This document shows, one piece after another, positions 3,412-59,276 of a stretch of DNA of 64,000 nt; position 1 is the first letter of the stretch; each line of letters starts with the position of its first letter. The translations under genes and the position numbers were made by a program. Under the pieces are notes generated by a model. The model ran no database searches. It was not told the origin of the DNA and was given only the letters and a program-made list of their open reading frames with translations. The stretch lies in the NCBI RefSeq assembly GCF_002113885.1, contig NW_018404512.1, forward strand, positions 218,553-282,552, given 5' to 3'. This stretch comes from Mizuhopecten yessoensis. Its lineage: Eukaryota.

Positions 3412-3815
3412 AACAAGAGTACCGCTGGGCGGAACAATTTACTGAAATGAGCAAAGGGCAATAACTTTTGCAAAAATTGTTGAATCAAAATTCTTTTAGG
3501 GGAGACACAACTTCATATCATGTTTATATACTGTATACCAAGTTTCAAGAGATCCAAGAAATCCGTCAAAAAATGTAGGAGATCTCCAGACAAAAAATCA
3601 AATACTGAAATGAACAAAGGGCAAAAACTTTTGGAAAGAATTTTGAATCAAAATTCTTTTAAGGGAGACACAACTTTATATCATGATTATAATGTATACC
3701 AAGTTATAAAGAGATCGGTCGAAAAATGTAGGAGGAGATTGCCAGACAAACAAAAGTTTACGCCGGATGACCCCATACCATAATACTCCCGTCAAAATTT
3801 GACGTGCGTATAAAA
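3412..3815 (+). mobile_element. HINE/Helentron-like non-autonomous element with ~160-bp internal repeats
   Basis: Starts aacaagag, has two internal copies of a ctgaaatga..aaagggca..gagacacaactt unit, and ends with a hairpin (cgtcaaaatttgacg) plus tataaaaa. Confidence 0.6.
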
Positions 3816-4040
3816 AGAGAATGTGGGATCCTCAAAACTCTAAGCAGACGCTAGCGCTCTACCAATTGAGCTAACTGGTTGCCAACAATTGACCCAGTCC
3901 AGTTCTGCTACAACCCTCCCTCCTTTTTTTAAGTCCAGGCCCCCAATTTAAACTCAGGTTCAGATATCCCCTTACTAAGCATTTACCCAGTGTTTGACAC
4001 AAGGGTTGACAAACTCGCCAATTTTGTAACAAGAGAAATA
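3816..4040 (-). mobile_element. Miniature LTR element (TRIM) with tRNA-like LTR: 5' LTR end, PBS, ~110-bp internal region, PPT, 3' LTR
   Basis: Minus strand reads ...ctcttgttaCA aaatTGGcgag...internal...aaaaaaaggagggaggg t TGtagcagaactggactggg...agttagctcaattggtagagcg (tRNA A-box). Confidence 0.8.
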
Positions 4041-4134
4041 GCCTGAGTTTCCTCTGGCCCTGACACCAGACTTAAGACATTTTGACAGGTGTGGGGCCAG
4101 AGCGCACTACTATATATATGAAAACGTGGAATTC

Positions 4135-4478
4135 TCCGACACCATTTGGTGTCGTAGAGTTTTGAGGTGCTGACAACAAAAATCGTCTATGACAAAACAC
4201 ATACCTCACATATATTTTAATGGATTATTTATTAATCCAAATTACATCCGCCCTTTTATCACCAACATCTGCTAAATTCCATCATAAGAGTCCTCGGTTT
4301 ACAATCGTTCAAAACTTCCCACCTGAGCAGACACCATTTTTGTATGTCAGGGTAGTGACTAATCAACAATCTGTACAGATCCGGACCGAAATCTTTTATT
4401 TCATGTTTAGAAAATTTCCGTACCGCTTTTTCTTGTTGATAGCAGCTCAAAACTCTCCCGACCCCAAACGGTGTCAGA
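4135..4478. mobile_element. MITE with ~45-bp imperfect TIRs, apparently interrupting the tRNA-LTR
   Basis: tccgacaccatttggtgtcgtagagttttgaggtgctgacaac (4135-) is inverted at 4431-4478. Confidence 0.65.
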
Positions 4479-4579
4479 CCAGGGTTCGAACCTTGGACCC
4501 TCCGAACTCTAGACAGACGCGCTCTACCAATTGGGCTATCTGGTCGCCGATGATCGACCAGGACCAATTCCGAAACACA
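4479..4579 (-). mobile_element. 5' part of a tRNA-containing LTR (same family)
   Basis: Minus strand: ggcgaccagatagcccaattggtagagcgcgtctgtctagagttcggagggtccaaggttcgaaccctgg, with A and B boxes; homologous to 36578-36706. Confidence 0.75.
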
Positions 4580-5109: not shown

Positions 5110-5464
5110 AGTATTACTTTAACAAATATATAGATCCCTCCATATATACCACAACAATGTCAGTCATTTCACATAAAATTGTCAATAAATTCCGTTTCAG
5201 TTCCATGTTTTCCGGGTGAATCTCGCCATGTTTTGAAAATCTCAAAGACGCGCCTCAACTTGAATCGGTTTTAGTCCAGCACTGAATAAAATAAATAATT
5301 GCAATAAAACAACGATATCTTTCTTGAATAAACACCCTTTTAAAAATACTTTACACGAAAAGCAGTTTGAATAATTATTGATTGATGTTACAATTTTTTA
5401 ATATATTCTCAAAATTTCTGCTGTTCTAGTATTTCTGGGAAGACTCATCGGAAGGCGTTTGGTT

Positions 5465-5637: not shown

Positions 5638-24365
<18,728 letters not shown>

Positions 24366-33659: not shown

Positions 33660-36600
33660 CTGTAACCAGGGCAAACAAACATAACGGGAAGGTAATCAAG
33701 ACAACAAAATATTATACGTCTGTTATCATGTCAACACAACAGGATCATAGCTATAAAAAAAGTATAATATTCTATAAAGAAGTTTATACTTTTTAGTTTG
33801 GATATCAGTCATATAAACCATATGATCTCACATATACTTAAACTACCAATATAAAAACAAAAAAAATGGCTGATTCTATCTGCTTTTGTTCATTTTGGTT
33901 GAATTTGCAATTCGTATAGAGAGTGAAGTCCTTTGTCATTAATAGAGCTTTTTGTATCGGCCAATCTGATTAAAATCATCTGTTACATGGCTCCGCCTGA
34001 ACATCTGAATGTGCCCCGGTCAGGGTCACGTTCAAGTGACCTTTAGATGAACCAATCAGAGGCGCACTGGCAAAATTTGCCAGCGAATCGGAATATCATG
34101 GTCGATACATAAATAGCGAGGGGTATCGAACAGATTAGTTTTCCAAGATTGATTGGTCAAAATTTAATGAGTATTTATAAATATAAAGGTCACCTGAAAG
34201 TGACCCTGACCGCGGCATACTCAGATGTTTAGGCGTAGTACGAAGTTAACGAAGCCATGTAACATATGATTTTAATCAGATTGTGTATCGGCAGACCCGA
34301 CAGAGAATTAAAAGTTGTTTGTATAAGTAAAAGTGACCTACCATCCAGTGTATTCTGTAGCTCCATCACCTGGGCGATGAGGCGCTGCTTCTCTTCCTCC
34401 TCGTCTGGGTTCACATCCAGGTCAAGGCCTGCATTTGAAGTAAAAAATCAACCACATTAAAAAGGATATTGAATAGTCGCACATTAGAAATGATATATAT
34501 TTTCGAACATCTGTGTTTTCCTCTGGTCACAGGAAAATATCCTCTTCATCAGGATGATGAATTACTGTATAATCTGTACAGATAACGTCAAACCATTTAA
34601 TTTGATTCACTCAATTTAAGCATTGTGCAATCTGGCATATCTAACTTTCCAACACAGAAAACATACAGAGTCTTGACAAATAGGTGACTGGCCAGACATG
34701 GTTTTTATATAAGGTTATATAAGTGTTAATATGATATAAAAAAAATCACTAAATGGTAATTGTGAAATTATGATGATGGCACACAACCATAATTCAGTGT
34801 TACAAATTTACCACTGAAAAGTAATATTTGAAGTTTATTTAACATAAATTCAAGATAATTTTTCATGCAACATTTATTTGTTGGTCTCTGTGGGAAAGGT
34901 TTATATCACACAGGTGTTAATGGACTTACTGCTGTAAGTGTCTGTCCGAACTTCCCCAGGGTTGATGAATGGATGGTCAACAGTTTTCACATCTCCTGGA
35001 AAAATTTCATCAAATAAACAGGTGAATTAAGTAAATACAAATTATCAATTTTGTCACTTTAAGTATCAAACAACAATGCTATTTCTGAATATTTAAGATA
35101 GTAAACCATCTTGAAGAACTTATACAGTACAATTTGTAAGCTACTGGGTTCAACACGTACATAATCCTGAATGTTAAGAATATGCATTTTAATCTTTTTA
35201 TGTACATTTTACCAACACAGAAAAGAAAAAGAAAAAAAATCACTTTGTGTAAAAAAAATATCTTTTTTTTCCTTCTAGAGACAAGTTTGTTTAAATATTC
35301 CAGAAAGAAGTTTGATACAGAGGGATTCTCAATCTTATAGAACTTTAATCTCTGTGTTACGTCTATCACTGATGGCCAGTTTCTGATAAGTCATTTTCCA
35401 AATCGAACACTTATGCTCTCTATAATATCACATATTTTCTCTGCACCCTTGGATTTTGTCAAGACAGAATTGAAGTCCCTGTACACACCACATTGCTTAG
35501 TTAACTAGACCTGCACACCTCCTTCATGGTATTGCATAACGATAAAGCAGAATAACCAGATGTTTTTGTACAGACTTCAGTGATAATGACCTTTGACCTT
35601 GTAACTTCAAAATCTAGAAGTTCCTCATAACCATTAGAAAACGGTACTCTTATAAGGAAATAAGAGTATTGACTAATCCTATTAAATTTCAAGGTCTTCC
35701 AGGCAAATAGATATAAATAATCACTGATACATTATCCATAAAATAGATTTTATCTTATCACAGAAAAAAAGTATCCAATCCCATGTTTCTATGGGAGTTA
35801 CAGTTTTTGACTGTGATATGGGGACATCCTTAAATCTATTTTAAAAGAATCAGTGATTATCTCCCTTTACATGTGATACAATTCCAAATTCCTCCAAAAA
35901 ACCCCAAAAGAGCAACACCAGGATACACATTATTATGTACATACCTTTCCTTGTCTTTTTGCAGAAGAAAATTAGGGATTTGTCAAACTAGTATAATGAT
36001 CATAGCATAATGGGGGATTTCAAATGCAAGAGGTAGTAAACAGACAACTCCTTTTGAAGTTTCAAGTTAAAATTCTTAAAATGATCTAAGAATTTGTTAG
36101 TCTAAAATTGTAAATGGAGAAAAGATTGCAACAGAAGTGAACTACAACAATCTACTATGATCAAGTACACTTCTGCCAATCCTAAGAAATATCTGTGTGT
36201 TGTCTTTTCTCTCTTGAACGGGATTTTGGGAATTTAAAGAGTAATAAGATGACTGTATGTGTTCACTAATAATGATGCCATTCAGGGGCACCTGGACACC
36301 TCAAACAAGTCGGACAGACAGCTCACTCATTATTCTTGCAATAGACTTATCAAAGGTGCCTAAAACAGACACAGGGGATCAAAAATATACGACATGTGTG
36401 CAGTCAGTTAATAGATGCTCCAAGATTTTATTTAATATATTGGACCATCTAATATCCCCTTTCACATAAGTTTGGACTTTATAGCTGAGCAAGCTAATTA
36501 TTTACCTGCTCAGCTGGGGATGTATATGTATAAGCAGAAATTCTATCAATGCATGTTCATGACCACCCCTGATCCACTGTAGCGGAACTAGACTTGGTCG

Positions 36601-37187
36601 TTCATTGGCGACCAGGTAGCTCAATTGGTAAAGCGTCCATCTAGAGTTTGGAAGGTCCCGGGTTCAAACCCCGGTCTGGCTGGCATTCTCCCTCTCCTAA
36701 CTTACAGTGGTGCATGTGATCACCCAACCCTTGTTTCAAGTATTGGTGTATGCTTGGCAAGGGGACATTTATATTGAGTCTTGGGACCACGGGTACTTAA
36801 TAAGTCTTTTCTGTAAATACACTAATGTTAATATTATGGGTGTACCCGTGTTAGGACAGTCTTTACAGACTTACTGTGACAAGACTGACCCGAGTACCAG
36901 TAGAAAGGCCCAAAGCTCTAATACGACTGAATTTAGGCCATCAAGAACTGTAATCTTCCTCTTTACATTACTACTGCAAAATGTCAACTGCAATAATCGT
37001 TATTTACATCACATCATTCAAATTGTGGAGTTCTGAATAAGAGACTGTGTACAGAATATTCGCTGTACTTGTAACCAGACAACATAATAAATTATCGCAT
37101 GCATACAAACAAATGAGTCGAACCTGTGTCACTATCGCTAGAAAGAGGCACGTTAAAGAGATTTTCTTTGTTGGTTCCCGTGGACAT
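33517..37187 (-). CDS. SCOC: Short coiled-coil protein (SCOC/UNC-69 family), 4 coding exons, 119 aa
   Basis: Exons 37187-37124, 34995-34930, 34428-34342 and 33659-33517 join in frame (360 nt). Conserved core [58 protein letters not shown]. Confidence 0.92.
33962..34283. mobile_element. MITE with CAATCTGATTAAAATCAT ends and a perfect 9-bp TSD
   Basis: tgtatcggc at 33953-33961 and 34284-34292; long imperfect TIRs; ends related to the 2305-2925 element. Confidence 0.9.
34342..34428 (-). CDS. SCOC: SCOC coding exon 3
   Basis: [28 protein letters not shown]. Confidence 0.93.
34930..34995 (-). CDS. SCOC: SCOC coding exon 2
   Basis: [21 protein letters not shown]; tttttccag acceptor, gtaagt donor, phase 1-1. 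Confidence 0.75.
36578..36800 (+). mobile_element. tRNA-containing LTR (TG...CA, 36578-36706) plus PBS and internal region
   Basis: TGtagcggaact...tRNA-like 36610-36677 (tagctcaattgg, ggttcaaacc)...ttaCA, then gTGGtgc and an internal sequence homologous to 3913-4024 (-). Confidence 0.8.
37124..37187 (-). CDS. SCOC: SCOC coding exon 1 (coding part)
   Basis: [21 protein letters not shown](G); in-frame stop 24 nt upstream; phase matches the next exon; donor gttcga is weak. Confidence 0.65.
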
Positions 37188-56261: not shown

Positions 56262-56417
56262 TAACTAGGCTGGCGCTCTCACTGGCGACCAGGTAGCACG
56301 GACCAGGTAGCGTGAGGTAGCGTGGACCAGGTAGGTTTGCTGGTTACAGCACCACTACAGTTTTGAGGTCCCAGGTTCAAATCCTGGTCTGGCTGTTGCA
56401 TGTTTCCTTTTCTATAA
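56262..56417 (+). mobile_element. Diverged tRNA-LTR copy with internal triplication
   Basis: ggcgaccaggtagc (repeated) ... gaggtcccaggttcaaatcctggtctggc ... ttccttttctata. Confidence 0.55.
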
Positions 56418-59147: not shown

Positions 59148-59276
59148 TGTGACAGGAAAAAGAGAAATGCATGGCCAGACTGGGATTCAAACTTATGACC
59201 CTCCGAACTCTAGACAAATGCTCCCCCAATTGAGCTACCTGGTCAATGACAATAGACCAAGTCCAGTTCCTCTACA
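59148..59276 (-). mobile_element. Solo tRNA-containing LTR with 4-bp TSD (CAAT)
   Basis: TG...CA ends; caat at 59144-59147 and 59277-59280; internal A box gtagctcaattgg and B-box-like gtttgaatccc on the minus strand. Confidence 0.85.

What the first reader, a model, noticed from the sequence alone, without database searches (positions are those of the whole stretch)
3816..4579. Miniature LTR retroelement whose LTRs contain a tRNA-like Pol III cassette (Helenus-like), with nested insertions
Seen on the minus strand: an LTR end (...ttgttaCA), a TGG-starting PBS-like site, ~110 bp of internal sequence, a polypurine tract aaaaaaaggagggaggg, then TGtagcagaact plus a tRNA-like sequence. The missing 5' half of the first LTR appears at 4479-4579, separated by a MITE (4135-4478) and a hairpin piece (~4040-4105). 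These copies look like SINEs but have LTR architecture. Known: Cassandra TRIMs carry 5S-like LTRs, and tRNA-like-LTR TRIMs have been described under the name Helenus. Inference: this is a non-coding, Pol III-driven TRIM family mobilised in trans.
Basis: partly seen in the sequence, partly recalled or inferred. Interest (0 to 1): 0.7.

Follow-up and report, generated by a model that had tools for sequence, protein, structure and literature searches.

The report
Scallop Helenus mini-retrotransposon with swapped primers
This is a decayed copy of a tiny gene-less jumping element of an already described kind (Helenus), broken by one inserted DNA transposon; its only unusual trait is that the same end repeat occurs in this genome with three different tRNA primer sites, which it likely picked up from the larger elements that would have copied it.

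Summary
The architecture is confirmed: LTR, primer-binding site (PBS), 112-bp internal part, polypurine tract, LTR, on the minus strand. The family has ~128-bp tRNA-like LTRs and 4-bp target-site duplications (14 of 41 exact, control 1.3%, none at 5 or 6 bp). Its PBS matches the host tRNA-Arg(ACG) over 14 nt. By eye the LTR is close to published scallop Helenus-2_PeMa and Helenus-1_ArIr, so this is a new member of Helenus.

One correction: the 'MITE' and the 'hairpin piece' are one ~540-bp element with 9-bp duplications, cut short here by a deletion.

One addition: the same LTR carries Arg-, His- or Lys-type primer sites. Arg and His types share their internal body. Arg priming is not listed for bivalve Helenus. 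A decayed Gypsy element has the same bulged His site (16 nt), and another Gypsy family has the Arg site and the same LTR end; this suggests helper switching.

Pol III transcription remains untested. The scan noted Helenus-type elements before in other genomes, not this sequence.

The parts
4475..4577 (-). 5' LTR, main part (starts TGTTTCGG; family start TGTAGCGG)
4475..4542 (-). tRNA-like cassette in the 5' LTR; A box 4538-4527, B box 4492-4482
   Evidence: Rfam tRNA 23.1 bits, E 0.48, below the gathering score in this decayed copy; 47.6 bits in the younger copy L129; boxes read
4039..4478 (.). One non-autonomous DNA transposon (MITE) inserted in the 5' LTR; intact end at 4039, outer ~100 bp of the other inverted repeat deleted; TCTG overlap with the LTR at 4475-4478
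4025..4038 (-). Last 14 bp of the 5' LTR (ends CA)
   Evidence: joint with the MITE present in contigs of two runs
4007..4020 (-). Primer-binding site for tRNA-Arg(ACG); 12 of 14 here (two C-to-T changes), 14 of 14 in the family's commonest form
3913..4024 (-). Non-coding internal region, 112 bp (family median 123 bp)
3914..3930 (-). Polypurine tract
   Evidence: conserved in the family
3814..3912 (-). 3' LTR with A box; B box region (~27 bp) deleted and terminus not recognisable
36578..36765 (+). Second family copy: whole LTR (36578-36706), decayed His-type PBS and part of the internal region; its cassette is called tRNA-Ser(AGA) by ARAGORN
59148..59276 (-). Solo LTR of the family with an exact 4-bp duplication (ATTG)

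Best explanation
The locus is a dead copy of a Helenus-type miniature LTR retrotransposon (two ~128-bp tRNA-like LTRs around a ~124-bp non-coding core) whose primer site matches the host tRNA-Arg(ACG), which was likely transcribed by RNA polymerase III and likely copied and inserted by Gypsy-element proteins, and which later received one DNA-transposon insertion followed by a likely single deletion. Shown: structure, 4-bp duplications, PBS match, solo LTRs, tandem arrays, and three PBS types on one LTR. Inferred: Pol III would start at the tRNA-like +1 (about LTR position 33), read through the 3-5 T run in the 5' LTR and stop at the same run in the 3' LTR, which would give a terminal repeat of about 75 nt. 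Inferred: a Gypsy particle would package this RNA, prime it with tRNA-Arg, use the polypurine tract for the second strand and integrate it. Inferred: the lineage changed primer by exchanging only the PBS patch, likely by template switching with co-packaged helper RNA.
For: 4-bp duplication exact in 14 of 41 full elements with intact ends and within one mismatch in 27 of 41 (non-self pair controls 1.3% and 11.8%); exact at 5 or 6 bp in 0 of 41. 18 of 19 pattern hits are one tRNA 3' end, called tRNA-Arg(ACG) in 7 of 8 loci scanned. In 22 copies chosen by internal similarity, PBS positions 1-14 match that tRNA in 14-22 of 22 and positions 15-18 in 0-2 of 22. The pattern CA+PBS gives 57 rows against 0 for the control; 27 of 29 distinct loci read are family copies. 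A box in 64 and B box in 60 of 84 Arg-type LTRs; Rfam tRNA 47.6 bits in L129. LTR-anchored set by eye: 11 Arg, 10 Lys, 3 His, 6 solo of 30. Internal body identity Arg-His 0.775 against 0.767 and 0.806 within types and 0.57-0.59 to Lys. A gag/RT/integrase-bearing element at G000:C2186 shares 16 PBS nt with the His type, including the extra T absent from host tRNA-His. A second family (L217, L240; protease-RT-RNase H order) has an Arg PBS (18 of 21 by eye) and shares 13-14 terminal LTR nt with the Lys- and His-type copies tested.
Against: No transcript start or end was seen: in four RNA runs reads lie on both strands and 84-92% run on into unlike sequence. The window copy's core has almost no RNA depth. 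The T run behind the cassette is a problem for full-length Pol III transcripts (5 or more T in 13 of 15 Lys-type LTRs). The Arg helper link rests on one decayed PBS (L217) joined to pol only through gag homology with another copy (72%); a search for further copies with that LTR end plus TGG gave 2 hits, neither with a PBS. The shared LTR end did not score against the one Arg-type copy tested (L050), and ctcctgttaca ends four published Helenus LTRs. The His helper is one internally deleted copy without a 3' LTR. Only 9 His and 8 Lys elements entered the comparison.
Confidence: 0.88

Rival explanations
1. A tRNA-derived SINE; the LTR-like pairs are tandem SINE copies.
For: The cassette scores as tRNA, ARAGORN calls two window copies tRNA genes, and single units are dispersed.
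Against: Fixed TG..CA ends, duplications of exactly 4 bp also around solo units (4 of 9 exact; 3 of those 9 are by eye 3' LTRs that the filter let through), a PBS and a polypurine tract at fixed places, no tails in 30 loci.
Confidence: 0.02
2. A Helenus-like TRIM whose tRNA cassette is a passenger; its RNA came from Pol II read-through out of host genes or flanks.
For: All family RNA seen is two-stranded and runs into flanks; T runs follow the cassette; PMC10886601 states that Helenus Pol III activity is unvalidated.
Against: The LTR is almost only the cassette; the boxes persist in published scallop relatives; these libraries would miss short Pol III RNAs of a silent old family.
Confidence: 0.15
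3. Same element, but the primer site was re-templated from a mis-priming host tRNA during plus-strand synthesis, without exchange with helper RNA.
For: The Arg and His sites differ only between a shared TGG and a shared CCA, and the Arg site is a perfect tRNA complement.
Against: The His site keeps a bulge that tRNA copying would remove (7 of 7 matches in 6 loci not chosen by that pattern), and a Gypsy element has the same bulge; the only genomic hit for a bulge-free partner tRNA was that element. This route stays open for the Arg type.
Confidence: 0.3

Closest known systems
Helenus-2_PeMa and Helenus-1_ArIr (scallop Helenus, TRIMp3; Kojima 2024, PMC10886601; main text parts 1-4 of 6, supplement parts 1, 6, 7, 10, 11 of 11 and three motif searches read)
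   Same: LTR of 129-130 bp with the same start, cassette and end (by eye about 85-90% to L129 and 80-85% to the window's 5' LTR); 4-bp duplication; same 3' internal end and polypurine tract. The Lys type here looks like their orthologue.
   Different: They have a tRNA-Lys PBS and 90-93-bp internals. The window's type has a tRNA-Arg(ACG) PBS and ~124 bp. Arg is not among the bivalve primers listed, and the motifs tggcgagc and tggtgcctgtg have 0 hits in the supplement (line breaks could hide a hit).
His-primed scallop Helenus (Helenus-3/4/5_PeMa, -2/-4_MiYe, -4_ArIr; same paper)
   Same: Bulged His primer sites; the motif aacctgggttg of the Arg/His body occurs in three of their internals.
   Different: Different, longer LTRs (153-174 bp) and different 5' internal halves.
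Hymenopteran Arg-primed Helenus (same paper, Fig. S2A)
   Same: Arg primer, 4-bp duplication.
   Different: tRNA-Arg(TCT), unrelated sequence, longer.
biv-TRIM (PMC6934838; parts 1-2 of 5 and passages read)
   Same: Bivalve TRIM with solo repeats and tandem arrays.
   Different: 202-218-bp repeats, 77-80-bp core, no canonical PBS.
AcademH or Mutator-like non-autonomous DNA transposons (for the insert)
   Same: 9-bp duplication; PMC10045372 (passages) gives 9-10 bp for AcademH and 4-10 bp for MuDR and relatives.
   Different: No transposase was linked, so the superfamily is open. TAG..CTA ends favour Academ (recalled, not from a call; the AcademH paper was not held).

Membership tests
Helenus (TRIMp3) | Short non-coding element with two LTRs | tested here: met
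   LTR ~128 bp, internal median 123 bp, total ~380 bp; 66 of 106 units have two or more LTRs and a typed PBS
Helenus (TRIMp3) | tRNA-like sequence in the LTR with A and B boxes | tested here: met
   Rfam tRNA 47.6 bits in L129, 23.1 bits in the window copy; A box 64 and B box 60 of 84 Arg-type LTRs
Helenus (TRIMp3) | PBS complementary to a host tRNA 3' end | tested here: met
   14 nt to host tRNA-Arg(ACG); window copy 12 of 14
Helenus (TRIMp3) | Polypurine tract before the 3' LTR | tested here: met
Helenus (TRIMp3) | 4-bp target-site duplication (animal families) | tested here: met
   14 of 41 exact, 0 of 41 at 5 or 6 bp; not recoverable in the window copy
Helenus (TRIMp3) | Transcription by RNA polymerase III (proposed, unvalidated in the paper) | tested here: inconclusive
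   No start or end peak in four RNA runs
Helenus (TRIMp3) | Mobilised by a Gypsy element with the same primer site | tested here: inconclusive
   Decayed candidates for His and Arg; no intact helper seen
tRNA-derived SINE | 3' tail and variable-length duplications | tested here: not met
biv-TRIM | 202-218-bp repeats, 77-80-bp core, no canonical PBS | tested here: not met
AcademH (insert) | 9-10-bp duplication | tested here: met
   9 bp with at most 2 mismatches in 9 of 11 copies with both ends found, of 24 loci; control 0.000
AcademH (insert) | Autonomous partner with Academ transposase and helicase | not tested
   No search was made for a coding partner

The most novel reading that the evidence does not exclude
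One Helenus LTR lineage changed helpers repeatedly inside one genome by swapping only its primer-site patch: His, Arg and Lys versions share the LTR, the His version carries the same odd bulged site as a Gypsy element, and the Arg version is a primer not reported for bivalve Helenus. This would be a direct sequence scar of helper switching by template exchange in a Pol III-type TRIM.
Probability: 0.45. Interest if true: 0.5.

Novelty: new member of a known kind. Interest (0 to 1): 0.3.

Why it matters
The element class is published, including for scallops, so the finding as written is not new. What is added is modest. First, an Arg-primed and a His-primed subfamily that are not among the 13 pectinid families of the paper's table. 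Second, a clean natural case for how such parasites change primer and helper, which the paper leaves open. Third, an annotation warning: these LTRs are called tRNA genes (2 of 2 ARAGORN calls in the window), and at roughly 11 loci per Mb (2 in 187 kb; very rough) there may be of order ten thousand.

Tried and rejected
Separate MITE and hairpin insertions: rejected, one element. L055/L057 as autonomous partner: rejected; no LTR pair or gag-pol frame in the stretch read around L055, and the flanks are tandem repeats. Exact 16-nt Arg PBS: 0 hits. With 2 mismatches over 18 nt: 26 hits; 12 were loci already found as tRNA-Arg genes or a family copy, and of the 14 read by eye two were family copies, two LTR-element candidates (L201, L212) and ten unrelated. 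L212/L215 has an LTR end and a 15-nt Arg PBS but no gag; a weak integrase piece lies 3.8 kb downstream (E 0.0009); left open. Conserved hairpins in the internal region: stems are visible in single copies, but folding energy is no better than shuffles (median z about 0 for 42 Arg, 9 His and 8 Lys), so no claim is made. A host tRNA that pairs with the His-type site without a bulge: none found. RNA test of Pol III: uninformative. Long exact motifs found nothing in the supplement; shorter ones did. Literature searches; none listed a paper on this family or on Arg-primed bivalve Helenus, but Repbase and most subscription journals were not searchable. Lys-type priming was taken from the paper's Fig. 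S2C; the host tRNA-Lys was not searched.

Full report
Observation. On the minus strand the locus reads: 5' LTR part 4577-4475, an insert 4478-4039, the last 14 bp of the LTR 4038-4025, spacer, PBS 4020-4007, internal region to 3913 with a polypurine tract at 3930-3914, and a 3' LTR from 3912 that has lost its B box and terminus. The LTRs are about 76% alike. Contigs of two public runs reproduce 3883-4066 without a difference. The joint at 4475 is not bridged by a listed piece.

Family. The window is G000:C1185. A search with the core gave 1096 candidates, 40 scored; an LTR search gave 1665 candidates, 40 scored. From 101 loci I parsed 106 LTR-bearing units. Of these, 66 have two or more LTRs and a typed PBS, and 41 of the 66 have intact outer ends; the other 25 were dropped from the duplication count. 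A 4-bp duplication is exact in 14 of 41 and within one mismatch in 27 of 41, against 1.3% and 11.8% for non-self pairs. At 3, 5 and 6 bp it is exact in 0 of 41. At least two of the 41 (L028, L125) are parts of tandem arrays and cannot match. Solo LTRs carry the same duplication, for example window 59148-59276, and tandem arrays exist (L128). No poly-A or simple-repeat tail was seen in 30 LTR-anchored loci (by eye). This excludes a SINE.

Primer. 18 of 19 hits of a T-arm pattern are one tRNA end, and ARAGORN names it tRNA-Arg(ACG) in 7 of 8 loci scanned. In 22 copies chosen by internal similarity the first 14 PBS positions match it in 14-22 copies each, and positions 15-18 in 0-2. At the two positions where the window copy differs, 20 and 19 of 22 copies agree with the tRNA.

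Cassette. A young copy scores 47.6 bits against Rfam tRNA; the window copy scores 23.1, below the cut-off. A and B boxes are kept in 64 and 60 of 84 Arg-type LTRs. The anticodon reads AGA without a long variable arm, so it is unlikely to be a working tRNA-Ser (inference). Four RNA runs laid on a young copy gave 409-555 reads each, on both strands, 84-92% running on into unlike sequence, with no start or end peak. That is passenger transcription and leaves Pol III untested. A run of 3-5 T follows the cassette, so a full-length Pol III RNA would need read-through in the 5' LTR (inference).

Insert. 4040-4478 matches end to end at many loci. Of 24 loci, 11 had both ends found; 9 of these are 527-614 bp with a 9-bp duplication at two mismatches or fewer (control 0.000; no other length from 5 to 12 scores). 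The inverted repeats are about 127 bp and begin TAG. The window copy lacks the outer ~100 bp of one repeat and ~15 bp of LTR, joined over TCTG, which fits one later deletion. The superfamily is open: AcademH makes 9-10-bp duplications (PMC10045372, passages), and Mutator-like elements also fit.

Three primer types on one LTR. The LTR-anchored set holds, by eye, 11 Arg, 10 Lys, 3 His and 6 solo units. Median LTR-LTR identity is 0.81 for Arg (n 25), 0.82 for His (n 9) and 0.91 for Lys (n 7), so the Lys type is younger; the sets were chosen by different queries. Internal bodies of Arg and His types are as alike across types (0.775) as within (0.767, 0.806), with only two diagnostic columns, both in the LTR end. 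The Lys core is a different 88-bp sequence. The His site has an extra T relative to host tRNA-His, present in 7 of 7 matches not chosen by that pattern. The His pattern has 271 rows; the 12 dispersed loci read were all TRIM copies, and three further loci read were a minisatellite.

Helper candidates. A search for a tRNA that would pair with the bulged site returned one hit, which is no tRNA. It is an LTR-like end plus a 26-nt His-type PBS in front of a gag frame with zinc knuckles, a Ty3-like RT piece and an integrase piece (G000:C2186; Pfam scores below the cut-offs). It shares 16 nt with the His-type TRIM, bulge included. For Arg, L217 has an LTR end, a PBS matching 18 of 21 nt by eye and a gag start that is 72% alike to L240. 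L240 carries protease, RT and RNase H pieces in Gypsy order and an LTR ending in the same 13-14 nt as the Lys- and His-type TRIM copies tested. Both links rest on single decayed copies; a search for more Arg-family junctions found none. Shared PBS and LTR termini are criteria used for partner assignment in wheat (PMC9744471, passages).

Comparison. Kojima 2024 (PMC10886601; main text parts 1-4 of 6; supplement parts 1, 6, 7, 10, 11) defines Helenus, lists 51 bivalve families with 4-bp duplications and Lys, His, Ile, Pro, Glu or Ser primers, notes primer changes, and says Pol III activity is unvalidated. Helenus-2_PeMa and Helenus-1_ArIr have nearly this LTR (compared by eye; no alignment was run) and the Lys-type core. 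The Arg and His cores are not among the 13 pectinid entries read, and their PBS motifs have 0 hits. Supplement parts 2-5, 8 and 9 were searched by motif but not read. Repbase could not be consulted. biv-TRIM differs in size and lacks a PBS (PMC6934838).

Abundance. Twenty arbitrary 10-kb stretches (187 kb, on contigs that had hits elsewhere) hold 2 loci, and shuffles 0. The window holds 5, one of them weak.

Verdict. A new member of a known kind; the window copy is a dead, doubly damaged insertion. Membership in Helenus is well supported. Pol III transcription and the helpers' identity are inferred. The primer swap is the only point likely to interest a specialist. Earlier scan notes report Helenus-type elements in other genomes, nothing like this sequence and nothing on this family in this genome.

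Noticed in passing
window 36609-36684 and 56315-56395: Both ARAGORN tRNA calls in the window (Ser-AGA, Val-TAC) lie in LTR-derived sequence of this family, so they are likely false tRNA genes.
   Followed up: partly
G000:C588:104973-110765 (L171-L183): A ~54-bp minisatellite made of the LTR 3' end plus the His-type PBS, in long arrays next to a His-type core. A cluster of the same pattern lies at C1185:528327-529765 (not read).
   Followed up: partly
L128 (G000:C1665:53999-54992): Tandem array of five LTRs and four 88-bp Lys-type cores, nearly identical.
   Followed up: partly
L090 1-3404 (G000:C5591): An intact copy of the same MITE sits in another tRNA-like sequence with an exact 9-bp duplication; the MITE end also abuts the TRIM at L003.
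   Followed up: no
L215 (G000:C76724:390082, minus strand): A different LTR-like element with a 15-nt tRNA-Arg PBS, no gag, and a weak integrase piece 3.8 kb downstream.
   Followed up: partly
window 3440-3781: A ~163-bp two-copy repeat of very high depth in public contigs directly flanks the truncated 3' LTR.
   Followed up: no
window 5150-5240, minus strand: An AAAACATGGCG motif (recalled as typical of gene starts) and a short ATG frame ending at a possible GT donor; the element may lie in the first intron of a minus-strand gene. Unverified.
   Followed up: no
G000:C5592 and C5434 (L035-L049): Clusters of tRNA-Arg(ACG) genes at 1-3 kb spacing.
   Followed up: no
window 7963-8022: Weak LTR-like fragment (E 4e-5).
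   Followed up: no
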